Assembly: GCA_964428015.1 (NCBI GenBank)
Contig: CAYRWR010000007.1
Coordinates: 21,546 to 85,545 of the forward strand
DNA length: 64,000 nt
Source: an uncultured Brevinematales bacterium
GTDB lineage: Bacteria; Spirochaetota; Brevinematia; Brevinematales; CAYRWR01
Direction of reading: 5' to 3'
Below are positions 4,667 to 56,025 of this stretch, piece by piece. Under the pieces are notes generated by a model that saw only the letters and a list, made by a program, of their open reading frames with translations, was not told the DNA's origin and did no database searches. The position numbers were made by a program, and so were the translations under genes. Numbering within the stretch: the stretch's first letter is position 1; each line of letters begins with the position of its first letter.

Positions 4667-7021
4667 TTATTTAGCGCCTTTACTCTTCAGGTATTGAACA
4701 ATCTGTTCAAAATTAGGAGTCATTTTCTGCTGATACCAGTACTGCGCTAAAAGCAAGGGGGTCGTTCCGGAAGGCAGCTTCGCATTGATATCCGCCCCGG
4801 CTTCTACCAGAGACCTAATGATACTTGGGTATCCACCTTCTATCGCTATCAGCAATACAGTCCATCCATCTTGTTTTACAGCATTGACATCTGCACCTTT
4901 TTTTATCAAATAGGAGACTATATCGGGATATCCATTATAGGCAGCATTCATTAGAGGAGTCTGGCCATTAAATGCCGTTAAACGAGCCTCGAGGTTCGCT
5001 CCTTTTTCTACCAGCATTTTTGTGATATCAAGGTTTCCTGAAATAGTAGCTTCGGTCAATCCGGTGACGCCTCCTTCTGCTACTGTCAAAGGATCAGCGC
5101 CATTTTTAAGCAGAAGTTCTACTACTTTTGCCTGGTCTGATCTTACGGCAAAAATTATAGCATCTTCTCCGCTATTATTCTTAGAATTAACATTAGCTCC
5201 TTTTTTTATTAGATATTGAATCGCCTCTAAATCTCCAAAGGCTGCAGCGTGCATCAGCAGGGTAGTTTCCTTCTTCATCTGGTTAGCCGAGGCACCATTA
5301 TCAAGGAGAAATTTCATAACCTGTTTATTCAGCACAGGAGTACCGGTTTGTTTGTTCTTTTGGTTCTTAGGTAAGACAAAATAAAATGTCCGTCCACCGA
5401 ACCCCATATACATGATATTTCCACCCAGAGTCCCGGACAATAAAGCTGTTTCATTGTTGTCGGATATAGCATTAATATCGATCCCTTTCTGGATCAGGTA
5501 TTTGAGGAAAGTAGTATTCCCATTTTCCGCAGCTAAAATCATAGCAGTTTCACCATTTTTACTCTTTACCTTGGGGTCAAGACCCAGGCCTTCCAGGTAT
5601 TGAAATAACTCCTGGTTACCGCTTAAAGCAGCACTAAGTATCGCATTCCTGCCATTGGAGTCAGATTCATTCAAGTCAGTCCCTTTTTCCAGGAGAAATT
5701 TTACCAATTCTAGATTTCCTGTCTCAGCTGCATCAGGAAGTATGGGAACCTTATTTTTGACTACACTGAGCTTAAGATCATACAGATATTTTACTAGATC
5801 CAAATTCCCACTCTGTACTGCTGAATTCATTACCACCCGGCCTTCTTTACTGGAGACTTTTATATCAGCTTTATTCTCGATGAGTAACTTAACGAGATCT
5901 AGATTTCCGCTCCCCGCTGCATAAAATAAAGGAGTGGAACCCCAGTTATCTTTTGCATTTACAGCCGATTTCTTGGCAATAAGTAAACGGCACATTTCAA
6001 TATTGCCATTTTTAGCGGCAAACATCAAGGCAGTCTGTTTATTTTTATTTACAGCCTGTACATTGGCTTTATTATCAAGAAAGAGCTGAACCAGTTCGAG
6101 GTTTCCATTCTCTGCTGCCACGACCAGATTGGGCTTGGGGTCTGTGGTGTCTTTTATATAGTTTACATTTGCTTTGTTGGATACCAAAATTTTTGCAAGT
6201 TCGGTATCATTTTTTTGAACCATCACAGGTAGATATCCAGTAGCATATCCGGCGCTGAGTGTAGCGCCTTTAGAAAACAGATAGCGTGCCAGATTATAAT
6301 CAGGATTGTTTTTTTTGGCATCCTTTTGCAGGGCATAGACTACCAGACTTTTGTCGTCGTAGGGCATTTTGATATTGATATCAGATCCCGCTTCTACCAG
6401 TACTTTAACTGCTGCCAGGGGTTCTTCAGCCCAAAAAATAGCATAAAACAAAGGAGTCCTTCCATTTATCACAGCCTTGGGATCACAGCCTTTTTCAATG
6501 AGGTATTTTACGATATCCGCTTTACCAGATGCTGCAGCCACAATGATAGTTGTAAAACCAAAATTATTCACTGCGTTGAGATCTGCTCCTTTTTCTACCA
6601 GAAGTTTTACCACTTCTAGATTACACCCCCACTGTATAGCAAACTGCAATGTAGTATATTTGTACCGATCTACGGCATTAACGTTAGCACCTTTTTCAAT
6701 TAGCAGTTTGGCTACCGGGACATTATTTTCAATGGCTGCACTCATCAGCGGTGTAATGCCTTTTTCATTAGTAGCATTCACATTAGCACCCTTGGAAATA
6801 AGGTAATTAATAATATCAACCGCATTTTTTTGCACGGCTACTGACAAAACAGGCCAGCCTTGTATACTGGTTTTGCAGTTGACATCCCCACCCTTGTCAA
6901 CCGCAGCCTGTACAGCTTTCAGATTTTTTTCAAAAGTTGCCTTCATCAAATCGTCATGAACAGTGGCATTCATAATGTTAAATACAACAAAGAACAATAG
7001 GACAGTAAGTATACTCCTCAT
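4667..7021 (-). CDS. Secreted ankyrin-repeat protein (about 20 or more ANK repeats)
   Basis: 784-aa ORF with an N-terminal signal-like peptide (MRSILTVLLFFVVFNIMNA). Throughout it shows the ~33-aa periodic ANK signature (G.TPLM.AA..GN...VK.LI.KGA.VNA.D). Confidence 0.9.
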   Translation of the reverse strand: MRSILTVLLFFVVFNIMNATVHDDLMKATFEKNLKAVQAAVDKGGDVNCKTSIQGWPVLSVAVQKNAVDIINYLISKGANVNATNEKGITPLMSAAIENNVPVAKLLIEKGANVNAVDRYKYTTLQFAIQWGCNLEVVKLLVEKGADLNAVNNFGFTTIIVAAASGKADIVKYLIEKGCDPKAVINGRTPLFYAIFWAEEPLAAVKVLVEAGSDINIKMPYDDKSLVVYALQKDAKKNNPDYNLARYLFSKGATLSAGYATGYLPVMVQKNDTELAKILVSNKANVNYIKDTTDPKPNLVVAAENGNLELVQLFLDNKANVQAVNKNKQTALMFAAKNGNIEMCRLLIAKKSAVNAKDNWGSTPLFYAAGSGNLDLVKLLIENKADIKVSSKEGRVVMNSAVQSGNLDLVKYLYDLKLSVVKNKVPILPDAAETGNLELVKFLLEKGTDLNESDSNGRNAILSAALSGNQELFQYLEGLGLDPKVKSKNGETAMILAAENGNTTFLKYLIQKGIDINAISDNNETALLSGTLGGNIMYMGFGGRTFYFVLPKNQKNKQTGTPVLNKQVMKFLLDNGASANQMKKETTLLMHAAAFGDLEAIQYLIKKGANVNSKNNSGEDAIIFAVRSDQAKVVELLLKNGADPLTVAEGGVTGLTEATISGNLDITKMLVEKGANLEARLTAFNGQTPLMNAAYNGYPDIVSYLIKKGADVNAVKQDGWTVLLIAIEGGYPSIIRSLVEAGADINAKLPSGTTPLLLAQYWYQQKMTPNFEQIVQYLKSKGAK

Positions 7022-36724: not shown

Positions 36725-36850
36725 GGTCTCCTCATCCCTTCTCACCCGGGATAGGGGATCACTGTGTCCCCTGGTACTGAGTGGAGTGGCGCACCCCCTA
36801 GCCCTGGGCGGTCTGCGGCATCTTAACGCTCCGCGAATGTAGATGCTTTC
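36725..36850 (+). repeat. Copy B of the dispersed GC-rich element
   Basis: It contains tcatcCCTTCTCAC (36732-36745) and ccctgggcggtctgcggcatctTAACGctCCGCG (36801-36834), homologous to copies A and C. Its end overlaps the vapC stop codon by 2 nt. Confidence 0.45.
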
Positions 36851-37253
36851 AGCTCACCCAGTTTTCCATTTTCAGATCAGGGATCCTGGAAAAATGCTTT
36901 TGATTGTTAGTCACCAGGGTCAGATTGTGACTGAGGGCAGTGGATGCGATTAACAGGTCCAAATCATCCTGAGGCAGGCCTTGTTTCGATACATCAGCCT
37001 TGAGAAGAGCAAAACTCTCCATAACAGACCGGTCAACTTCCAGAATGGGATAGATATCAGCCAGCCGCATGACAGTAGCCAAATTCTTCTGAAAATGGCG
37101 GGATTTATGGGCACCATACAGCAGTTCGCCATAGGTCACCACGGAAATGAATTTAGGGTCATTTTTCCTGTCCAGAAAATTTTGATTCACGCCATTTTCA
37201 TTTTTAAGACTGTACATGATAATATCAGTATCAATCAAATAAAGCATTGTCAT
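36849..37253 (-). CDS. vapC: PIN-domain toxin VapC
   Basis: The track ORF extends to 37325. In-frame ATGs at 37253 and 37247 give M(TM)LYLIDTDI..., with the PIN acidic residues (IDTD, YGEL, DLLIAST, TNN.KHF). It overlaps the antitoxin stop (37231) by about 20 nt. Confidence 0.8.
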   Translation of the reverse strand: MTMLYLIDTDIIMYSLKNENGVNQNFLDRKNDPKFISVVTYGELLYGAHKSRHFQKNLATVMRLADIYPILEVDRSVMESFALLKADVSKQGLPQDDLDLLIASTALSHNLTLVTNNQKHFSRIPDLKMENWVS

Positions 37254-37509
37254 CCCCAAAGCGTTGACTGTTGGCCCTGTCTTTTTTGATATCTGAGAGA
37301 ATCTCCGCGCTACTGCGGTCATCAATCCAGCTGCCCGCCAGTTCCAGAAATTTTTCAGTAGGATTGATACCGATCCTGTTTTTGCCGGATATATAGTTTT
37401 CTAATATTTGAATCACTTCCTGACTGAGAGATCTTTTTTCTTTTTTTACCAGGGCCTGGAGTTCAGAATACAAGCTGTCTTCTATATCTCGTACCTGGAG
37501 AATAGCCAT
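37231..37509 (-). CDS. vapB: Ribbon-helix-helix antitoxin (VapB/FitA-like)
   Basis: The ATG at 37509 is preceded by AGGAGG. MAILQVRDIEDSLYSELQALVKKEKRSLSQEVIQILE matches the RHH beta-alpha-alpha pattern. It lies immediately upstream of and overlaps vapC. Confidence 0.7.
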   Translation of the reverse strand: MAILQVRDIEDSLYSELQALVKKEKRSLSQEVIQILENYISGKNRIGINPTEKFLELAGSWIDDRSSAEILSDIKKDRANSQRFGDDNALFD

Positions 37510-37638
37510 ATTTTCCTCCTTTCTTTTTAATATATCGCACCATGCATGAAATGTCATTCATTTCGCATGAACATTATATAATTTTCCGTTATATATTTTT
37601 ACAAAACAACATTGAAAAATTGAAATAAAAAAAATCAC

Positions 37639-37667
37639 TTGACATTGTTTATGTGCGCACATATAAT
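37639..37667 (+). promoter_or_regulatory. Near-consensus sigma70 promoter with an embedded palindromic operator for the second TA module
   Basis: The -35 is TTGACA (37639-37644), the spacer is 17 nt, and the -10 is TATAAT (37662-37667). A perfect 12-bp palindrome, ATGTGCGCACAT (37651-37662), lies in the spacer. An RBS AGAGGAGG follows, then the ATG at 37691. Confidence 0.65.
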
Positions 37668-37690
37668 GTGTAATAGAGGAGGTTTTTTAT

Positions 37691-37915
37691 ATGAAAAACA
37701 TAACACTATCCATAGATGATAAACTTTTATCCGCGGGAAGAGAATACGCGGCCAGACACCATATTTCTTTCAATGTTCTGGTGAGAAAACTGATAGAACA
37801 GACTGTTCTTAAAAAATCTGATCATTGGCTGGAAGACACCTTTCTACTGATGGATAAGGCTGAGGTAAAAGATAAAAAAGCAAAATGGACACGGGAGGAA
37901 TTATACCGTGTCTAA
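37691..37915 (+). CDS. Antitoxin (RHH-like) of the second PIN toxin-antitoxin pair
   Basis: 74 aa. The N-terminal ITLSIDDKLLSAGREYAARHHISFNVLVRKLIE matches the RHH pattern. It overlaps the downstream PIN gene by 8 nt. Confidence 0.65.
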   Translation: MKNITLSIDDKLLSAGREYAARHHISFNVLVRKLIEQTVLKKSDHWLEDTFLLMDKAEVKDKKAKWTREELYRV

Positions 37916-38339
37916 AATATTTCTTGATACCAACTTTCTGGTTTACAGTATCGATACCCGGGACAAAGAGAAGCATCAAAAAGCACGTTTGATTCTGGCA
38001 AAGGCTGTGGAACTGCATCTGCCGGTGATTTCTACCCAGGTCATTCAGGAGTTTTACGTGGTTTGTACTCAAAAATTAAAAATTGACCCTTTGATAATCA
38101 AAAACATTATACACAACTTCCAGAACCTGGAAATCGTGAATAATGATTTAAGCCTGGTGGAACAGGCCATCGATATCAGTATACTTTCTCAGCTGTCATT
38201 TTGGGATTCCTTAATCATTGCGGCAGCCGAAAAAGCCAATTGCGACCTGGTTCTTTCTGAAGACTTGAATTCAGGCCAGAATTACAGGGGTATAATAGTA
38301 TTGAATCCTTTTAGTGTGGAAAATTTCGATAATCTCTGA
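37908..38339 (+). CDS. vapC: PIN-domain toxin (VapC family), second module
   Basis: It has a GTG start that overlaps the antitoxin. The PIN acidic residues are present (FLDTN, QEF, FWDSLI, SED). Confidence 0.82.
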   Translation: MSKIFLDTNFLVYSIDTRDKEKHQKARLILAKAVELHLPVISTQVIQEFYVVCTQKLKIDPLIIKNIIHNFQNLEIVNNDLSLVEQAIDISILSQLSFWDSLIIAAAEKANCDLVLSEDLNSGQNYRGIIVLNPFSVENFDNL

Positions 38340-38344
38340 TTTTC

Positions 38345-40369
38345 TCAGTACTCATCCCCGCTGAACTGGGCATGGTTCAGTACCTTGTCTTCGATTTCCT
38401 GTTTTTCTTCAGGGGAGGCATCGGGGGCGGTTTTGGAGCCGCTGCGCCGGAAGCGTTCCAGCCAGTCCCTACCCAGCAAAGTAAACCCGCGGGCCGCCGC
38501 GGCGGTACTGAAGGCGGTGGTAGTCTCGGACTTGGGGCCTGTGCCCGGCCCGACACCCACATAGAACCCCGCCGCCAGCAGGGCTCCCCTCACCTGGGTG
38601 GAGGTGGAATAAGTCAATAGCCTGGTCCCGGCGGGGGCGCACAGACGGAACAGCCTGGAAAAAGAAGCATAATTCCACAAGGGTCCATTGGTATTCAGTG
38701 AAAACATGTCATAATAGATACAGCGCGGCGCGGGAGCCTGGCTGCACCGCTCCTCAAAATCCCCTTCCAGTAAGACCCATTCGATCCGTCCATCCGGAGA
38801 TACCCATTGGCCCTGGCGGAGCAGGCTACCCGGCCCGGCATGCCTGACATGAGGAAAGTGCGCGGTATGTTTACAGGCCAGCCGCAGGGAGTCCAGGTCA
38901 TTCTCAAAACTGAATATACGTATGCGTAGTGTGGAATCGGCCTCCAGCAGTTTTTCCGCCTCCATGATGGTCACCATGGCATTGGTACCCGCGCCCAGAC
39001 CCACATCCCAGATCACAAAATCTGCCTGGTCCTGCCCCTGTATAGCTTGCCTCAGTCCGCTTTGTTCAAAATACAGCGTCCGGGACTCCACCATGGGGTC
39101 GGAGACAGAGTGCATGGTCTCCCCGGAGGAGCGCTGACGGATGCTGTTGAAGCCGGGTCCCTCTACTATCTCATAATCCCCCAGGGTGTAGGCTTTTTTG
39201 CGTACAGGCCTGCTTGGGGGTAATTTGGGATGCTCCCCGTCGGGGGCAGACAGCAGCTCCCGGTGGGTGTTATAAAAGGACAGGAAGCTATTGTCCAGGA
39301 TATGCCGGCGCATATTGTCCATAAGCTGTTTATAATAGGCCAGGTTGTGCCGTCCGATGAGGCTGTACCCCAGGAATTCTTTGGTCTTGACCAGGTGGTG
39401 CAGATAGGCCCGGGAGTAGCTGCGGCAGGTGGGGCAGGCGCAGTTTTCGTCGAGGGGGCGGTCGGACAGTTTGTAGACTGAGCGCCTCAGCTCTACCCGT
39501 CCCTGTGAGGTATAGGCCAGCCCCTGCTGGGACACATAGGTGGGGATGATGCAGTCAAACATGTCCATCCCCCGGTGCACCGCCTCCAGCAGGTCCAGGG
39601 GCGTACCCACTCCCATGAGATAACGGGGCCGGTCGGGGGGGAGCAGTGCCGCGGTGAGAGCGGTGATGTCCTTGCGCTCCTCTTCCTCCTCCCCTACCGC
39701 CAGTCCCCCGATGGCATAGCCGTCAAAGGGCAGAGAGGTGATCTGAGCGGCGCTCCGCTTACGCAGGGCCGGAAAGCAGCCCCCCTGTACGATTCCGAAC
39801 AGGGACTGGGGAGAGTCCTGCCGGGCGGCCAGGCTCCGCTCCGCCCAACGCGCGGTGAGCTCCACCGCCTCCCGGCAGACATCGAGGGGTGAGCGGGAGG
39901 ACGCGCACTGGTCCAGGGCCATCATGATATCACTGCCTATGGCCTTCTGGGTATCGATACTGAGCTCGGGGCTGAGCAGGTAGCCGCGTCCGTCCACGTA
40001 GGACCGGAAAGAGGCTCCTTCTTCCGTGATTTTAAATGACTGTGACATGGAAAATATCTGGAATCCCCCGCTGTCGGTCAGGACCGAACGGGGCCAGTTC
40101 ATAAATTTGTGGATACCGCCCAGTGTCCGGAACACCTCTGTCCCGGGCCGGAGCAGGAGATGGTAGGTATTGGCCAGCAGTACCGGATAGCCCATGTCTT
40201 CCACGGCAGGGGTGGGCTGATTGCGCAGAGCGGCAAAGGTAGCCACAGGCATGAACAGAGGGGTCAGGACCTCATTGTGCAGAGTTTTAAAGCGGCAGGC
40301 CCGTGCCGCCGTACCGTCCGCCCTGGCCTCCACCTCAAAGCCCAGCCTGGAATCAGAAACATCCTTCAT
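38345..40369 (-). CDS. tgt: Queuine/preQ1 tRNA-ribosyltransferase (Tgt) fused to a C-terminal MnmC-type (Methyltransf_30/DUF752-like) SAM methyltransferase domain
   Basis: The N-terminal ~380 aa has LTDSGGFQ, DGYAIGGLAVGE, LMGVGTPLDLLEAV and the zinc site CACPTC...H. The C-terminal ~280 aa has ETMHS...VESRTLYF, VIWDVGLGAGTN, YYDMFSLNTNGPLW and LLTYSTSTQVRGALLAAGF, resembling the MnmC methyltransferase domain. It is a single uninterrupted 674-aa ORF and is visibly GC-rich (about 60-70% in sampled lines). Confidence 0.85.
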   Translation of the reverse strand: MKDVSDSRLGFEVEARADGTAARACRFKTLHNEVLTPLFMPVATFAALRNQPTPAVEDMGYPVLLANTYHLLLRPGTEVFRTLGGIHKFMNWPRSVLTDSGGFQIFSMSQSFKITEEGASFRSYVDGRGYLLSPELSIDTQKAIGSDIMMALDQCASSRSPLDVCREAVELTARWAERSLAARQDSPQSLFGIVQGGCFPALRKRSAAQITSLPFDGYAIGGLAVGEEEEERKDITALTAALLPPDRPRYLMGVGTPLDLLEAVHRGMDMFDCIIPTYVSQQGLAYTSQGRVELRRSVYKLSDRPLDENCACPTCRSYSRAYLHHLVKTKEFLGYSLIGRHNLAYYKQLMDNMRRHILDNSFLSFYNTHRELLSAPDGEHPKLPPSRPVRKKAYTLGDYEIVEGPGFNSIRQRSSGETMHSVSDPMVESRTLYFEQSGLRQAIQGQDQADFVIWDVGLGAGTNAMVTIMEAEKLLEADSTLRIRIFSFENDLDSLRLACKHTAHFPHVRHAGPGSLLRQGQWVSPDGRIEWVLLEGDFEERCSQAPAPRCIYYDMFSLNTNGPLWNYASFSRLFRLCAPAGTRLLTYSTSTQVRGALLAAGFYVGVGPGTGPKSETTTAFSTAAAARGFTLLGRDWLERFRRSGSKTAPDASPEEKQEIEDKVLNHAQFSGDEY

Positions 40370-40624: not shown

Positions 40625-41659
40625 TCATTTTATATCTCCTAACGAATTAGGAATATTCTCATAATCATAAAACCGTTCTAATTCAGCACCTGTATTAATA
40701 TCCCTTAAATAAATTCTCAAATCATTTCCTTGAAATCCAACCCACACCGCAAAATTGTTCGAATTTTTGTATGAGAGAGTTTTACTTAATTCTTTTTTTA
40801 AATCTAATATTTCGTATCTTTCATTGATTTTATCATTATATATATATAATTTTCCATCATGACTAAAAGAATTTTGTTGGGGTATCGAACTAAAATGATT
40901 TTTTTTATCTAAAATGATATTAGTTTTATTATTTATAACAAGCAATCTAGTTTCTGTTTCTGGTAAATTAAGAACTAATTCTACATAATTTCCATTTTCT
41001 GAAATATTACTATATTCAACTTGTCCAAATGTTATATATACCCATTTTTTTCTAAAACTTAAATCGTAGACATTAACTTGAGTCATCGGAAAGGTATCGG
41101 ATAAGTCTACTTTATTACTTTGATCATAGATAAAGAACATTTGAATTTCCAAAATACTTTTTCCATCTTTAGAAGTAAGTAAACTTTTTGATATTATTTC
41201 AGAAATATCGTTTTGTTCGTCGGGAACAATATTATTATTAAGACAAATTTTTTTAAATATTTGATCATTTTTTTGTTTTAGAATGTTTGTCACTAAGGTG
41301 TTATTTGGCACCCTTAAAATGATAGTAGAGTTAGAAACAATAATTAATTGAGAATAACCTTGCATTTTGAAATTATCATAATTCATGATAGATAGGTTTA
41401 TAGCCCTATTTTCAAAAGCATCACCAATCCATTTCTCTATAATTGAATTATAGAATTCTTTTTTTATCCTAATAAAATTATGTATTTTTATTTCATTTTT
41501 AAAATACAATATTGTTTCATTTCTATTCGACAAATTAAATTTCGGCTCTATTTCACTAGATTGTGTATTTTTTTCCTCTGGCTTCACTTGTCCGCATGAG
41601 GCCAGGAGGACCAGGATGGTTACAATGGTGGTGGTTTTGGTGGACAGGGTGGTTTTCAT
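40625..41659 (-). CDS. Hypothetical lipoprotein with an extremely AT-rich mature part
   Basis: The lipobox is LLASC. There is no recognisable domain. The first ~80 nt (signal peptide) are about 54% GC, and the remaining ~950 nt are about 17-25% GC in sampled lines. Confidence 0.7.
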   Translation of the reverse strand: MKTTLSTKTTTIVTILVLLASCGQVKPEEKNTQSSEIEPKFNLSNRNETILYFKNEIKIHNFIRIKKEFYNSIIEKWIGDAFENRAINLSIMNYDNFKMQGYSQLIIVSNSTIILRVPNNTLVTNILKQKNDQIFKKICLNNNIVPDEQNDISEIISKSLLTSKDGKSILEIQMFFIYDQSNKVDLSDTFPMTQVNVYDLSFRKKWVYITFGQVEYSNISENGNYVELVLNLPETETRLLVINNKTNIILDKKNHFSSIPQQNSFSHDGKLYIYNDKINERYEILDLKKELSKTLSYKNSNNFAVWVGFQGNDLRIYLRDINTGAELERFYDYENIPNSLGDIK

Positions 41660-53592: not shown

Positions 53593-54321
53593 ATGAAAAA
53601 ATGGTTACTTTTAACGATTTTTCCTTTGTTATTCTCCTGTTCCAGCCTGATCCGTAGTCCTCAACAGGCTCTTATTTCTGATTTTGCATTATTGGACAAA
53701 TCTTTTATTTCCGCTTTATATCTCTCCAGGCAGGGTGATCCCAATGCCGCTAGGAAATATTTTCCTGTACTCCGTAAACAATGGAAATATATCGCTACAA
53801 AGTATAAAAATGAATTGTTTGATGAAACCGGCTGGATCAATCCGGGGGATAAGATATCAATCATGATTACCGGGCTTCCCCAGATTTCCAGTGAGGATAT
53901 GCACGATGAGCTGGAAGACATTCAGGACCTGTTAACTGATTTAAGAGGCAGAAACGAAATAGATTATTATCTTGATTATTTGTTTCATTTTCATACTGCC
54001 ATGGAAACATTCGGTAACCTTGTACCCCTATGGATTAATAAATCCACCACCCTGGTCAATCTGAAAAACGCCGGTCGTACTATGGAAAGTGAATGGAATA
54101 AATGGAAAGCACAGTCCGTCAATCCCAGGATCTTTAGTATGAATAATGAAGATTATACTAAGCTGCAACAGCAAATTACAAATATGGATATGATTATGTC
54201 TAAAATGATACCTGCAATAAATGCCGGAGATCAGACCCAGATACCGGCCTTAATGCCGGATATCAAGAAAACGTATATTTCCTGTCTTTTACTGTTCAGT
54301 AATCTTGAGAAGAAAAAATGA
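53593..54321 (+). CDS. Hypothetical lipoprotein
   Basis: The lipobox is LLFSC. It starts 1 nt after the gatA stop, and its own stop forms an ATGA overlap with the rlmN start. There is no recognisable domain. Confidence 0.7.
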   Translation: MKKWLLLTIFPLLFSCSSLIRSPQQALISDFALLDKSFISALYLSRQGDPNAARKYFPVLRKQWKYIATKYKNELFDETGWINPGDKISIMITGLPQISSEDMHDELEDIQDLLTDLRGRNEIDYYLDYLFHFHTAMETFGNLVPLWINKSTTLVNLKNAGRTMESEWNKWKAQSVNPRIFSMNNEDYTKLQQQITNMDMIMSKMIPAINAGDQTQIPALMPDIKKTYISCLLLFSNLEKKK

Positions 54322-55400
54322 CGGATATTCTGGATATCTCTTTCAAGGACTTTAAAGAAAAACTGCAGGAACATGGTTATCCCCCCTATAAAGCCAATGC
54401 TATCCTGGGTTGGATCTATAAAAAAACCATCTTTGACTTTCAGGAAATGTCTGACCTCTCTAAAGCTATGCGATCAGAAATGGCGGAGCGGTATCGCGTA
54501 ATCAATCTGGAACAGGTTGACATGCAGCCCTCCACAGATGACGAAAGTTTTAAATTCGTATTCCGAACCCTGGACGGCAAATTCATCGAAAGCGTGCTTA
54601 TCGTCAGTGCCGACCCCGAAGAGCGCCTCACGGTCTGTGTCTCCTCCCAGATAGGTTGTGCCTTGGGCTGCGCTTTTTGCGCCACGGGACGTATGGGTTT
54701 TGACCGTGATCTGCTGGCCTCAGAGATCATCTCCCAGGTACTGCTCATTGACCGTTTCGCCAAACAGCATTTCAAACTGGATCCTAAAGACAGAGGCATC
54801 ACCAATGTCGTCTATATGGGCATGGGCGAGCCACTTTTGAATTATGAGCAGGTAGTCAAATCTATCCAAACCCTGAATTTTTCCGGCGCCTACAATCTGG
54901 GAAAACGGCATATCACTGTGTCTACAGCCGGGGTTGTCCCTCAGATTTTAAAAATCGCCCAGGATCTGGATCAGGTACGTCTGGCTGTATCTCTGAACAG
55001 CACAGACCAGGATAAGCGTAAGATACTTATGCCTCTTACCCTGAAGTATTCCGTCACTGAACTCCTCAACGCGGTCAGAGAGTATCAGGATGTCACCAAC
55101 CGGCGGGTCACTTTTGAATATGTGCTGATCGAAGGGATAAACGATACAGAAAATGATGTGATCAATATGAAAAGAGCCTTGTACAAACTCAAATATAACC
55201 TCAACCTCATCCCCTATAACGAAAACGATGAGATCGCCTTTGACAAACCTGCTGCCAATACCCTGAAACAGTTCAGAGGATATCTGAAAAAGCACGGTAT
55301 TCCCTTTGTAGAAAGATATTCCAAAGGCCAGGAGATCAAAGCTGCCTGCGGACAATTGGGCCTGAAACTGAAAAGACAGCAGGAACATGGCGCGCGATAA
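54318..55400 (+). CDS. rlmN: Radical-SAM 23S rRNA/tRNA adenine-C2 methyltransferase RlmN
   Basis: It has the radical-SAM motif CALGCAFCATG and RlmN-type N- and C-terminal blocks (YRA/KANAILGWIY, AACGQL). Confidence 0.92.
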   Translation: MTDILDISFKDFKEKLQEHGYPPYKANAILGWIYKKTIFDFQEMSDLSKAMRSEMAERYRVINLEQVDMQPSTDDESFKFVFRTLDGKFIESVLIVSADPEERLTVCVSSQIGCALGCAFCATGRMGFDRDLLASEIISQVLLIDRFAKQHFKLDPKDRGITNVVYMGMGEPLLNYEQVVKSIQTLNFSGAYNLGKRHITVSTAGVVPQILKIAQDLDQVRLAVSLNSTDQDKRKILMPLTLKYSVTELLNAVREYQDVTNRRVTFEYVLIEGINDTENDVINMKRALYKLKYNLNLIPYNENDEIAFDKPAANTLKQFRGYLKKHGIPFVERYSKGQEIKAACGQLGLKLKRQQEHGAR

Positions 55401-56025
55401 GTTATACCATTCCGCTTCACATCCCCGCGATTTCCCCGAGGGCCAGATTCTGACAAATGCCATGGAAATGGCCAAAGTCCAGCTTAAACTAAAAATAAAG
55501 CCCGGTGATCTTGTGGCGGATGCCACCGCGGGCAACGGTTACGATAGCCTGTTCCTGGCGGACCTGGTGGGTAATAGCGGCCATGTTTACAGCTTTGACA
55601 TCCAGGACACTGCTATTGAAGCTACCCGGACTCTGCTTTCCCGCTATGGACTACTGGAAAGAGTCACTCTCGTTCTTTCAGGACATGAGAATCTGGATCA
55701 ATATTGTACAGCTCCGCTCAGGGCGGTAGTATTTAACCTGGGATATCTGCCCGGTGGTGACCGTACCAAAACCACACAATTTGAAACTACAAAAACAGCC
55801 ATAGAAAAAAGCCTGTCTTTGCTGACTGAGGATGGAATGATTGTTCTGGTCGTGTACAGCGGTCACTCCACAGGAAATCTGGAAGCCAGTGATCTTCGGG
55901 TGTGGCTGACTGATTTACCTCAAAAGCAATACAGTGTGATGGAATGGAAATTCATTAACCAGAAGAATTCCCCACCCTCCCTGATTCTGATTGAAAAAAA
56001 TCAGAAACCGGGTTTTAAACCATAA
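55387..56025 (+). CDS. Class I SAM methyltransferase of the YtqB/MnmM type (PF06962-like)
   Basis: The blocks DATAGNGYDSLFLADLVG..GHVYSFDIQ, FNLGYLPGGD, VVYSGH and INQKNSPPSLILIEK match what I recall of B. subtilis YtqB (MnmM). It overlaps rlmN by 14 nt. Confidence 0.7.
   Translation: MARDKLYHSASHPRDFPEGQILTNAMEMAKVQLKLKIKPGDLVADATAGNGYDSLFLADLVGNSGHVYSFDIQDTAIEATRTLLSRYGLLERVTLVLSGHENLDQYCTAPLRAVVFNLGYLPGGDRTKTTQFETTKTAIEKSLSLLTEDGMIVLVVYSGHSTGNLEASDLRVWLTDLPQKQYSVMEWKFINQKNSPPSLILIEKNQKPGFKP

What the first reader, a model, noticed from the sequence alone, without database searches (positions are those of the whole stretch)
38345..40369. Tgt fused to an MnmC-type methyltransferase domain: a possible undescribed wobble-base (preQ1) methylation route
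A single 674-aa ORF joins two domains. The first is a complete bacterial-type tRNA-guanine transglycosylase, with DSGGFQ, GGLAVGE, LMGVGTP.D and the Zn site CxCxxC..H. The second is a ~280-aa domain whose motifs resemble the SAM-dependent methyltransferase half of MnmC: VIWDVGLGAGTN, YYDMFSLNTNGPLW (compare FLDGFAPAKNPEMW) and LLTYSTSTQVRGALLAAGF. Both parent enzymes act on tRNA position 34. The MnmC substrate (nm5s2U) and the Tgt product (preQ1) both carry a free exocyclic aminomethyl group. This suggests, as inference only, that the fused domain may N-methylate preQ1 in tRNA or otherwise couple the two pathways. A separate MnmM/YtqB-like methyltransferase at 55387-56025 could already cover canonical mnm5U methylation. 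That would leave the fused domain free for another role.
Basis: partly seen in the sequence, partly recalled or inferred. Interest (0 to 1): 0.7.

Follow-up and report, generated by a model that had tools for sequence, protein, structure and literature searches.

The report
Tgt fused to MnmC2-type methyltransferase
One gene really does join the enzyme that inserts the queuosine precursor into tRNA to a second tRNA wobble-base methyltransferase, but this fusion is already on record and common, and the idea that it methylates the queuosine precursor remains an untested minority reading.

Summary
ORF 38345-40369(-) encodes 674 aa: a complete bacterial Tgt (PF01702 E=3.6e-134; TIGR00430 439 bits, cutoff 307), a flexible basic linker, and an MnmC2-like SAM methyltransferase with a conserved 55-aa tail. 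The fusion is not an artefact: over 120 protein clusters and at least 599 matched stretches in species-representative genomes from eight or more phyla carry this methyltransferase type, and nearly all those inspected are fused to Tgt.

It is not new. A 2023 preprint lists TGT/MnmC2 among the MnmC2 fusions, without testing function.

The most likely function is two independent wobble modifications. Tgt inserts preQ1 at G34. The methyltransferase, closest in sequence and fold to validated Aquifex MnmC2, converts nm5(s2)U34 to mnm5(s2)U34.

This methyltransferase subfamily is linked in genomes only to tgt, whether fused, adjacent or nearby, and never to que or mnm genes. Its Tgt partners share an altered conserved motif. 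It scores below NCBI's MnmC2 cutoff.

MnmM is real here, but it has one syntenic relative and otherwise resembles Firmicutes proteins. Full-genome queA/queG/mnmE/mnmG inventories could not be made.

The parts
39257..40339 (-). Tgt domain (aa 11-371), bacterial tRNA-guanine(34) transglycosylase of the preQ1 type. Key residues: D99, F103, D153/C155, G221-G-L-A-V225-G-E227, M252, nucleophile D272, Zn site C310/C312/C315/H341, and dimer hot-spot Y318/Y322/H325/E331.
   Evidence: PF01702 E=3.6e-134. TIGR00430 scores 439 bits, above its cutoff. It is 44% identical to E. coli Tgt. Foldseek TM 0.94 and rmsd about 1.7 A to Z. mobilis and T. maritima Tgt. The listed residues are invariant in 41 fusion proteins.
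39182..39256 (-). Inter-domain linker (aa 372-396), proline- and lysine/arginine-rich, predicted to be disordered.
   Evidence: pLDDT is below 50 for aa 385-391, and pTM is 0.59 for the whole chain although mean pLDDT is 87.8. The alignment consensus is D.EHP..PP..KKRK.
38510..39181 (-). MnmC2-like class I SAM-dependent methyltransferase domain (aa 397-620). Motifs: SGE.MHS, W454-D-V-G-L-G-A-G-T-N463, S487-F-E489, G536-D537, D554-M-F-S557...W565, T586-Y-S, G611-P-K613..T616-T617.
   Evidence: PF05430 E=2.3e-11. NF033855 scores 76.7 bits, below its cutoff of 136. A profile search against PDB gives Aquifex MnmC2 3vyw at E=2.3e-22 and the E. coli MnmC N-domain at about 1e-12. The AF2 model has pLDDT 92 and pTM 0.90. 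The top Foldseek hit is 3vyw (E=3.8e-15, TMq 0.68).
38348..38509 (-). Conserved C-terminal tail (aa 621-674) of two helices packed on the methyltransferase domain. W636, S643, H666, Q668 and F669 are invariant. The tail is shared by fused and stand-alone members of the subfamily.
   Evidence: Invariant columns. Helices at aa 634-642 and 653-664 fold with high confidence. Foldseek aligns 287 columns to the 305-residue Aquifex MnmC2. PMC3648344 says Aquifex MnmC2 ends in a loop-helix-loop-helix that E. coli MnmC lacks.
55387..56025 (+). Separate MnmM (YtqB-type) nm5s2U methyltransferase gene. It overlaps the end of rlmN (54318-55400).
   Evidence: NF053511 scores 223.5 bits against a cutoff of 135, and PF06962 E=3.8e-48. 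The one syntenic relative is P0391 at 53% identity. The named hits among the rest are Firmicutes at under 50% identity, and one unnamed hit that was checked lies in a Firmicutes-like context.

Best explanation
The gene encodes a bifunctional tRNA wobble-position enzyme. Its two catalytic domains work independently and are joined by a flexible basic linker.

The N-terminal domain is the organism's Tgt. It swaps G34 of GUN-anticodon tRNAs (Asp, Asn, His, Tyr) for preQ1, through the D272 covalent ribosyl intermediate. It probably works as the usual Tgt homodimer.

The C-terminal domain is a stand-alone-type (Aquifex-like) MnmC2. It uses SAM to methylate the aminomethyl nitrogen of nm5(s2)U34, which MnmE/MnmG make by the ammonium route on Lys, Glu and related tRNAs. 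The product is mnm5(s2)U34.

What is shown: domain identities, intact catalytic and cofactor motifs, confident folds, a flexible linker, and wide conservation of the fusion. What is inferred: the substrates of both domains, and their independence.

On this reading the fusion gives co-expression and perhaps shared affinity for the anticodon arm, not a new pathway. In this particular genome an acquired MnmM is a second, redundant nm5s2U methylase.
For: Tgt half:
- It passes the NCBIfam equivalog cutoff.
- All catalytic, preQ1-pocket (C155, V225), Zn and dimer residues are conserved.
- Its predicted fold matches bacterial Tgt at TM 0.94.

Methyltransferase half:
- The residues reported as critical in E. 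coli MnmC (motif I glycines, E101, D178, K236; PMC3648344) have counterparts D455/G457/G459, E489, D554 and K613.
- The best PDB match, by sequence profile and by fold, is Aquifex MnmC2. The literature cites Aquifex MnmC2 as a tRNA methyltransferase that works without MnmC1.

Genome-level evidence:
- In the three Verrucomicrobia with this fusion in the published 968-genome set, MnmA, MnmE and MnmG are present, the fusion is the only COG4121 protein, and YtqA/MnmL is absent. This is the Aquifex-type ammonium-route pattern.
- Stand-alone members of the same subfamily exist on long contigs far from tgt.
- AF2 predicts two well-folded domains with no confident interface (pTM 0.59, disordered linker).
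- MnmM is not a general companion of the fusion.
Against: - The methyltransferase domain scores 76.7 bits against a cutoff of 136 for NCBI's MnmC2 model. It lacks G179 and P182, which are more than 98% conserved in bifunctional MnmC.
- About 2 Mb of flanks around about 170 family members contain no mnmE, mnmG, mnmC1 or yhcC/ytqA-like gene, and only one mnmA. Tgt, in contrast, is fused, adjacent or nearby in most loci. The only genomic association is therefore with the queuosine enzyme.
- The Tgt partners form a distinct type, with MGVG-T-P and PT-x-x-x-Q-[R/Q]-G in place of the E. coli and Z. mobilis MGVG-K-P and PT-R-x-x-R-N-G, whether fused or separate.
- This genome also encodes a bona fide MnmM, although mnmM and mnmC are reported to be mutually exclusive.
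- The presence of mnmE/mnmG and queA/queG in this genome was not established.
Confidence: 0.6

Rival explanations
1. Sequential action on one tRNA. After the Tgt domain inserts preQ1 at position 34, the tethered methyltransferase N-methylates the 7-aminomethyl group. The product is 7-(methylaminomethyl)-7-deazaguanosine, either as an end product replacing queuosine or as a branch of the Q pathway.
For: - nm5U and preQ1 both carry an exocyclic aminomethyl group at position 34 (established chemistry).
- Methyl-preQ1 exists in nature, in phage DNA, although it is made there by an unrelated enzyme, DpdM.
- This methyltransferase subfamily is linked in genomes only to tgt. It was fused in 81 of 91 and 49 of 80 loci sampled, in separate adjacent genes in L153 and L144, and 1.5-5.4 kb apart in L102, L104, L139 and L167. 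No que or mnm genes lie nearby, apart from a single mnmA.
- The Tgt partners are a distinct motif type.
- The methyltransferase is below the MnmC2 equivalog cutoff.
- This genome has MnmM as well, against the reported mutual exclusivity.
Against: - There is no direct evidence, and no methylated preQ1 in tRNA appears in the searched literature.
- The nearest characterised relatives are nm5s2U methylases.
- Stand-alone members are unlinked to tgt in Chthoniobacterales and in 14 metagenome loci.
- No fixed interface that would bring the two active sites together is predicted.
- The shared Tgt motif could simply mark descent from one ancestral fusion.
- The MnmM co-occurrence is confined to a narrow lineage.
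Confidence: 0.2
2. The methyltransferase is active on nm5(s2)U, but the fusion also has a structural role. The extra domain and the basic linker add tRNA anticodon-arm affinity to a Tgt type that has lost basic RNA-contact residues. The two activities then depend physically on each other while acting on different tRNAs.
For: - K264 and R289 (Z. mobilis numbering) are replaced in nearly all partner Tgts, and R286 in all of them (mostly Q, sometimes K).
- The linker is rich in Lys and Arg.
Against: - Separate, unfused tgt genes of the same motif type exist (L102, L104, L139, L167, L153), so this Tgt type works without a covalently attached methyltransferase.
- Most family members have an Arg one position later (Q-R-G), which may compensate.
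- No interface is predicted.
Confidence: 0.15
3. The fusion is an artefact of assembly, frameshift or gene calling, or the methyltransferase half is a decayed remnant.
For: None was found. One locus of about 170 (L069) does show a frameshift between the halves.
Against: - The exact protein is found on an independent contig.
- Hundreds of fused orthologues occur across phyla.
- The SAM and catalytic motifs are invariant.
- The fold is predicted with high confidence.
- Both halves have the same composition.
Confidence: 0.01

Closest known systems
[quoted passage not shown]
   Same: The architecture is the same (PF01702 followed by an MnmC2 domain) and so is the length, 680-696 aa against 674 aa. 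Opitutaceae and Lacunisphaera loci were recovered as relatives of the window's methyltransferase domain at 45-50% identity.
   Different: The window's protein comes from a spirochaete-like lineage that the paper did not list. The paper records the fusion only as one of four 'other' MnmC2 fusions and neither tests nor discusses its function.
Aquifex aeolicus MnmC2 (DUF752, PDB 3VYW), a stand-alone nm5s2U34 methyltransferase
   Same: It is the best hit by sequence profile (E=2.3e-22) and by fold (E=3.8e-15, TMq 0.68). It shares the motifs DVG.G..N, SFE, GD, D.FS...W, YS.S..VR..L..GF and G.K. It is about the same size and also has a C-terminal helical extension that E. coli MnmC lacks.
   Different: Identity is only about 21%. 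The 'SP.KNPELW' loop after the catalytic D-x-F is not kept in the window protein ('SLNTNGPLW'). The tail does not align by sequence. Aquifex MnmC2 is not fused to Tgt.
E. coli MnmC (MnmC2 N-terminal domain fused to the FAD oxidase MnmC1; PDB 3AWI, 3PS9, 2QY6)
   Same: It has the same methyltransferase fold and equivalents of the SAM-binding and catalytic residues. It is also a fusion protein that acts at position 34.
   Different: The partner domain in MnmC catalyses the preceding step on the same nucleotide. Here the partner is Tgt, which acts on other tRNAs. No MnmC1 domain is present in the window protein, and none lies near any family member. G179 and P182 are not conserved.
Canonical bacterial Tgt (E. 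coli, Z. mobilis)
   Same: Identity is 42-44%, TM-score is 0.94, and all catalytic, preQ1-pocket, Zn and dimer-interface residues are kept.
   Different: The window protein has MGVG-T-P in place of MGVG-K-P, and PT-Y-V-S-Q-Q-G in place of PT-R-N/S-A/G-R-N-G. It also carries a C-terminal extension of about 300 aa.
DpdM (DUF3109), the dPreQ1 methyltransferase of phages
   Different: It has an unrelated metal-binding fold, acts on DNA, and shares no homology with the window protein. The only phage match to the window's methyltransferase domain was an E. coli prophage mnmC at 26% identity.

Membership tests
Bacterial tRNA-guanine(34) transglycosylase Tgt (TIGR00430 / PF01702) | Whole-domain match above the curated equivalog cutoff | tested here: met
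   TIGR00430 scores 439 bits against a cutoff of 306.75. PF01702 scores 447.8 bits.
Bacterial tRNA-guanine(34) transglycosylase Tgt (TIGR00430 / PF01702) | Catalytic Asp pair, the preQ1-specific pocket (Cys158 and Val233 in Z. mobilis numbering, GGLAVGE) and the Zn site CxCxxC...H | tested here: met
   D99, D272, D153/C155, V225/E227 and C310/C312/C315/H341 are invariant in 41 homologues and align to E. coli Tgt.
Bacterial tRNA-guanine(34) transglycosylase Tgt (TIGR00430 / PF01702) | [quoted passage not shown] | tested here: not met
   The window has PT-YVSQQ-G. Nearly all of the 97 partner Tgts have Q (a few K) at the second Arg position. E. coli has RNARNG and Z. mobilis has RSGRNG. The consequence for function is unknown.
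Bacterial tRNA-guanine(34) transglycosylase Tgt (TIGR00430 / PF01702) | Base-exchange activity on G34 of GUN tRNAs | not testable with these tools
   This needs a biochemical assay.
MnmC2 / MnmD, the nm5s2U34 methyltransferase (NF033855; PF05430) | Match to the Pfam family above the gathering score | tested here: met
   PF05430 scores 44.1 bits against a cutoff of 22, at aa 529-620.
MnmC2 / MnmD, the nm5s2U34 methyltransferase (NF033855; PF05430) | Match to NCBI's equivalog-domain model above its cutoff | tested here: not met
   NF033855 scores 76.7 bits against a cutoff of 136.
MnmC2 / MnmD, the nm5s2U34 methyltransferase (NF033855; PF05430) | SAM-binding and catalytic residues (E. coli G66-G70 loop, E101, D178, K236) | tested here: met
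   D455-V-G-L-G-A-G, E489, D554 and K613 are conserved. G179 and P182 are not.
MnmC2 / MnmD, the nm5s2U34 methyltransferase (NF033855; PF05430) | MnmC2 fold | tested here: met
   The AF2 model has pLDDT 92. The top Foldseek hits are 3vyw, 2qy6, 3ps9 and 3awi. TM-scores of 0.6-0.7 show considerable divergence.
MnmC2 / MnmD, the nm5s2U34 methyltransferase (NF033855; PF05430) | Co-occurrence with MnmE/MnmG, which make the nm5(s2)U substrate | tested here: inconclusive
   MnmA, MnmE and MnmG are present in three published Verrucomicrobia genomes with the fusion. They are not in the 64-kb window or in any +-10 kb flank.
MnmC2 / MnmD, the nm5s2U34 methyltransferase (NF033855; PF05430) | Methylation of nm5s2U-tRNA | not testable with these tools
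   This needs complementation or an in vitro assay.
Hypothetical preQ1-tRNA N-methyltransferase coupled to Tgt | Absence of queA and queG/queH, with queF present, in fusion-bearing genomes | not tested
   Whole genomes could not be searched. No que gene lies within +-10 kb of any of about 170 loci.
Hypothetical preQ1-tRNA N-methyltransferase coupled to Tgt | A defined inter-domain geometry that allows hand-over of nucleotide 34 | tested here: not met
   The full-length AF2 model has pTM 0.59 and a disordered linker. A flexible tether does not rule out hand-over.

The most novel reading that the evidence does not exclude
A distinct Tgt subtype (MGVG-T-P / PT-x-x-x-Q-[R/Q]-G) and a distinct tail-bearing MnmC2-like methyltransferase subtype form a two-step module, fused in most lineages and encoded by neighbouring genes in some. 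The module inserts preQ1 at position 34 and then N-methylates its aminomethyl group. This would give a methyl-preQ1 wobble nucleoside not yet known in tRNA, perhaps in place of queuosine.
Probability: 0.2. Interest if true: 0.85.

Novelty: new member of a known kind. Interest (0 to 1): 0.45.

Why it matters
If the ordinary reading holds, the value is mainly in annotation. Databases name these proteins only 'Tgt'. JGI even names the stand-alone methyltransferases 'queuine tRNA-ribosyltransferase'. The second activity is therefore missed in at least 599 species. These proteins would also fill the missing last step of mnm5s2U synthesis in Opitutae, Bacteriovoracaceae, Leptospirales-like spirochaetes and other groups.

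If the minority reading holds, it would add a new tRNA wobble nucleoside and a new branch of the queuosine pathway. It would also be a natural tRNA counterpart of the methyl-preQ1 recently found in phage DNA.

The survey made here makes the question cheap to test in cultured organisms such as Lacunisphaera limnophila or Peredibacter. It shows the exclusive linkage to tgt, the unfused tgt-methyltransferase neighbours, and the partner-specific Tgt motif.

Tried and rejected
1. Conserved gene neighbourhood of the fusion. Three contexts of close homologues and 79 genome loci share no neighbours. tblastn with E. coli QueA/C/D/E/F/G, MnmA/E/G, MnmC1, YhcC and YajC, plus the window's MnmM, found only one mnmA in about 2 Mb.

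2. Context of the stand-alone methyltransferases. In Chthoniobacterales the conserved neighbours are DUF2911, PIG-L, SSF and MacB, none related to tRNA.

3. Whole-genome inventory of que and mnm genes. This was not possible. The look-up of encoding contigs returned only a 2.3-kb Logan contig for the window protein, and the collection scans are capped.

4. Matching contig lengths to detect MnmM on fusion-bearing contigs. No overlap was found. This is suggestive only, because just the top 120 hits are listed.

5. Phage search for an MnmC2-like preQ1 methylase. Only an E. coli prophage mnmC matched.

6. Rfam and tRNA scans of the window, looking for a preQ1 riboswitch or tRNA genes. Nothing was found.

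7. Literature search for methylated preQ1 in tRNA, and for the role of Tgt R286/R289 in U35 recognition. The first found only the phage DNA work. [quoted passage not shown]

8. Other N-terminal partners of the methyltransferase (P0244, P0264, P0138). No queuosine- or mnm-related domain was found, only an AMIN domain in P0264.

9. Genes lying between separate tgt and methyltransferase genes (L102, L104, L167). They are unrelated: peptidases, a Ser/Thr kinase and an AHH/Imm11 pair.

10. An NJ tree of fused against stand-alone methyltransferase domains. It suggests about 19 state changes. I give it little weight because metagenomic fragments can pass for stand-alone genes.
Full report
**1. The observation**

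The window carries one uninterrupted 674-aa ORF at 38345-40369 on the minus strand.
- Pfam finds TGT (PF01702) at aa 21-369, E=3.6e-134, and Methyltransf_30 (PF05430) at aa 529-620, E=2.3e-11.
- NCBIfam finds the Tgt equivalog TIGR00430 at 439 bits (cutoff 306.75).
- NCBIfam also finds the MnmC2 domain model NF033855 over aa 413-620, at 76.7 bits. That is below its curated cutoff of 136.

The fusion is genuine.
- The same protein sits on an independent Logan contig.
- All 120 listed homologues (53-70% identity) are about 675 aa, apart from a few shorter or partial ones, and all but one partial sequence have both domains on record.
- The two halves have matching composition, GC 0.61 and 0.585. 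This resembles the other core genes of the window (dnaJ, dnaK, lptFG).

The separate MnmM at 55387-56025(+) is also real. NF053511 scores 223.5 bits against a cutoff of 135, and PF06962 matches.

**2. Anatomy**

An alignment of 41 fusion proteins (A1) shows strong conservation along the whole chain.

The Tgt half keeps these features, as shown by the alignment to E. coli Tgt at 44% identity:
- the general acid/base D99 (DSGGFQ) and the nucleophile D272 (MFDC);
- the preQ1 pocket of bacterial type (D153-Q-C155; G-G-L-A-V225-G-E227);
- the zinc site C310/C312/C315/H341;
- the aromatic dimer hot-spot (Y318, Y322, H325, E331).

The full-length AlphaFold model has mean pLDDT 87.8 but pTM only 0.59, and aa 385-391 fall below pLDDT 50. 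This means two well-folded domains joined by a flexible, Lys/Arg-rich linker, with no confident fixed interface. Foldseek places the N-terminal domain on Z. mobilis and T. maritima Tgt, with TM 0.94 and rmsd about 1.7 A.

The C-terminal 290 aa, modelled with stand-alone relatives (A2), fold as one compact unit with pLDDT 92 and pTM 0.90. Their best structural match is Aquifex aeolicus MnmC2 (3VYW; E=3.8e-15; TMq 0.68 over 287 columns). The E. coli and Yersinia MnmC N-terminal domains follow. A sequence profile gives the same order: 3VYW at E=2.3e-22 and E. coli MnmC at about 1e-12.

PMC3648344 singles out several residues for E. coli MnmC. Their counterparts here are:
- the motif I glycine loop: D455-V-G-L-G-A-G;
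- E101: E489;
- D178: D554;
- K236: K613.

G179 and P182, which are more than 98% conserved in bifunctional MnmC, are not kept. The window has D-M-F-S-L, and the family has D-[P/M/L]-F-S-x.

A 55-aa tail (aa 621-674; W636, S643, H666, Q668 and F669 invariant) forms two helices packed on the domain. Aquifex MnmC2 also ends in a helical extension that E. coli MnmC lacks.

**3. How common and how old the fusion is**

An exhaustive HMMER search with the C-terminal 290 aa gave 2065 hits at E<=1e-3 and 191 at E<=1e-30. The best 150 cluster representatives mix fusions of about 670-690 aa with many stand-alone proteins of about 275-300 aa. The stand-alone proteins cover the whole query, tail included.

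The best 79 loci come from:
- Spirochaetia and Leptospirales;
- Bdellovibrionota, including a complete Peredibacter genome;
- Opitutae and Lacunisphaera;
- Steroidobacteraceae;
- Binatia;
- Acidobacteriota;
- Chitinispirillaceae;
- Kiritimatiellia.

In 81 of 91 loci examined, Tgt lies in the same ORF, with a median length of 680 aa. The exceptions are the Chthoniobacterales stand-alone genes, contig-edge truncations and one frameshift.

**4. It is already on record**

[quoted passage not shown] Its Data S3 names three Verrucomicrobia with TGT+MnmC2 proteins of 680-696 aa. The paper does not test or discuss their function.

In those three genomes MnmA, MnmE and MnmG are present, the fusion is the only COG4121 protein, and YtqA/MnmL is absent. 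That is the pattern expected of an Aquifex-type ammonium route, in which a lone MnmC2 finishes mnm5s2U synthesis.

**5.

Against the idea:
- The nearest characterised relatives are nm5s2U methylases.
- The domain exists as a stand-alone gene far from tgt. The Chthoniobacterales loci L006-L011 have conserved neighbours DUF2911, PIG-L, SSF and MacB. Fourteen metagenome loci have no tgt upstream.
- AlphaFold predicts no interface.
- No methylated preQ1 in tRNA appears in the searched literature. The only methyl-preQ1 reported is in phage DNA and is made by the unrelated DpdM.
- No phage encodes a close relative of this domain.

- The window's MnmM has a single relative above 50% identity. It lies in the same syntenic block in another assembly: dnaJ-dnaK-grpE-HEAT-PPK2-CsgG-gatA-rlmN-mnmM-SpoIIE-BatA.
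- The next hits are 44-53% identical. The named ones are Firmicutes, and one unnamed hit that was checked sits in a Firmicutes-like context.
- None of the 120 MnmM hits shares a longest-contig length with a fusion-bearing contig, including the complete 4.95-Mb chromosome that carries P0048.

MnmM therefore looks like a lineage-restricted acquisition, not a general companion of the fusion.

In favour, or at least unexplained by the ordinary reading:

(a) The only genomic partner of this methyltransferase subfamily is tgt.
- A metagenome scan was seeded with a block of stand-alone-only members (A3).
- Of its 80 loci, 49 were still fused.
- L153 and L144 have tgt and the methyltransferase as separate adjacent genes.
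- L102, L104, L139 and L167 have a separate tgt 1.5-5.4 kb upstream on the same strand. The genes between them are unrelated and vary from locus to locus.
- About 2 Mb of flanks contain no queA/C/D/E/F/G, mnmE/G, mnmC1, yhcC/ytqA-like or mnmM gene, and only one mnmA.

(b) The partner Tgts share a signature, whether fused or separate.
- They have MGVG-T-P in 93 of 97 cases, and PT-x-x-x-Q-[R/Q]-G.
- E. coli and Z. mobilis have MGVG-K-P and PT-R-N/S-A/G-R-N-G.
- The signature may only mark common descent from one ancestral fusion, with later fissions. It may also reflect changed RNA handling.

(c) The domain fails NCBI's MnmC2 equivalog cutoff.

(d) Cho et al. (PMC9976899) report that mnmM and mnmC are mutually exclusive. 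This genome breaks that rule.

**6. Weighing**

A methyltransferase with every MnmC2 cofactor and catalytic motif, whose best sequence and fold match is the validated Aquifex enzyme, most likely does the same chemistry on the same substrate. This is supported by its being the sole MnmC-family protein in MnmEG-positive genomes.

I give the bifunctional-but-independent reading about 0.6. On this reading Tgt acts on GUN tRNAs and MnmC2 acts on nm5(s2)U34 tRNAs.

The recurrent and exclusive association with tgt is what comparative genomics normally takes as a sign of a shared pathway. For that reason I keep the preQ1-methylation reading at about 0.2. An artefact is effectively excluded.

The decisive datum is the presence or absence of queA and queG/H and of mnmE/G in fusion-bearing genomes. 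The tools available could not provide it.

**7. Verdict**

- The architecture is known and widespread, so the window's protein is a new member of a known but functionally untested kind.
It is currently unsupported by direct evidence, and one of its props, MnmM, is weak.
- Interest is moderate (0.45). It would be high (about 0.85) if methyl-preQ1 were found in tRNA.

Noticed in passing
window 39512-39535 and 39602-39619 (aa 279-286 and 251-256 of the ORF); also L102, L104, L139, L153, L167: Every Tgt associated with this methyltransferase subfamily, fused or encoded separately nearby, has MGVG-T-P and PT-x-x-x-Q-[R/Q]-G. E. coli and Z. mobilis have MGVG-K-P and PT-R-x-x-R-N-G. [quoted passage not shown]
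   Followed up: partly
window 40625-41659 (-): A 344-aa ORF directly upstream of the 60%-GC tgt fusion has only 26.7% GC (GC3 22%). It has a lipoprotein-like N-terminus (…LLASCGQ) and no Pfam or NCBIfam match. It looks like a foreign or fast-evolving insertion.
   Followed up: partly
window 36849-38339: Two small toxin-antitoxin-like pairs lie immediately downstream of the fusion gene. They consist of PIN/VapC-like ORFs at 36849-37325(-) and 37908-38339(+), with short partner ORFs at 37231-37557(-) and 37691-37915(+). This call rests on the sequence alone and was not checked against family models.
   Followed up: no
window 54318-56025 (+); L179: rlmN and mnmM overlap by 14 nt. The pair is syntenic in one other assembly (DRR438485). 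All other MnmM hits are under 50% identical, and those that could be placed look Firmicutes-like. This genome carries both MnmM and an MnmC2-like domain, although the two families are reported to be mutually exclusive.
   Followed up: yes
P0141 and relatives; L006-L011: JGI labels stand-alone methyltransferases of about 300 aa from Chthoniobacterales, which have no Tgt domain, as 'queuine tRNA-ribosyltransferase'. The annotation was apparently propagated from the fusion proteins.
   Followed up: yes
L104 5980-7914: In a Myxococcota-like metagenome contig, an AHH-nuclease toxin and Imm11 immunity pair, plus DUF6068, lie between a separate tgt and the methyltransferase gene. The two genes seem to have been pushed apart by insertions.
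   Followed up: partly
P0264 (504 aa): A member of the same methyltransferase subfamily carries an N-terminal AMIN domain instead of Tgt. P0244 (505 aa) has an unassigned N-terminal region of about 230 aa.
   Followed up: partly
window 4667-7021 (-): A 784-aa protein made almost entirely of ankyrin repeats (12 Ank_2 stretches). This is unusual for a free-living bacterium.
   Followed up: no
window, whole: Gene-to-gene GC heterogeneity is very strong, from 27% to 60%. Conserved housekeeping genes (tgt fusion, dnaJ, dnaK, lptFG, dnaB) have GC3 of 65-76%. Lineage-specific genes have GC3 of 22-43%.
   Followed up: partly
L069 7241-9254: One GTDB locus (Deltaproteobacteria bacterium DP_20) has the Tgt and methyltransferase halves in different frames. 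This is either a frameshifted or pseudogenised fusion, or a sequencing error.
   Followed up: no
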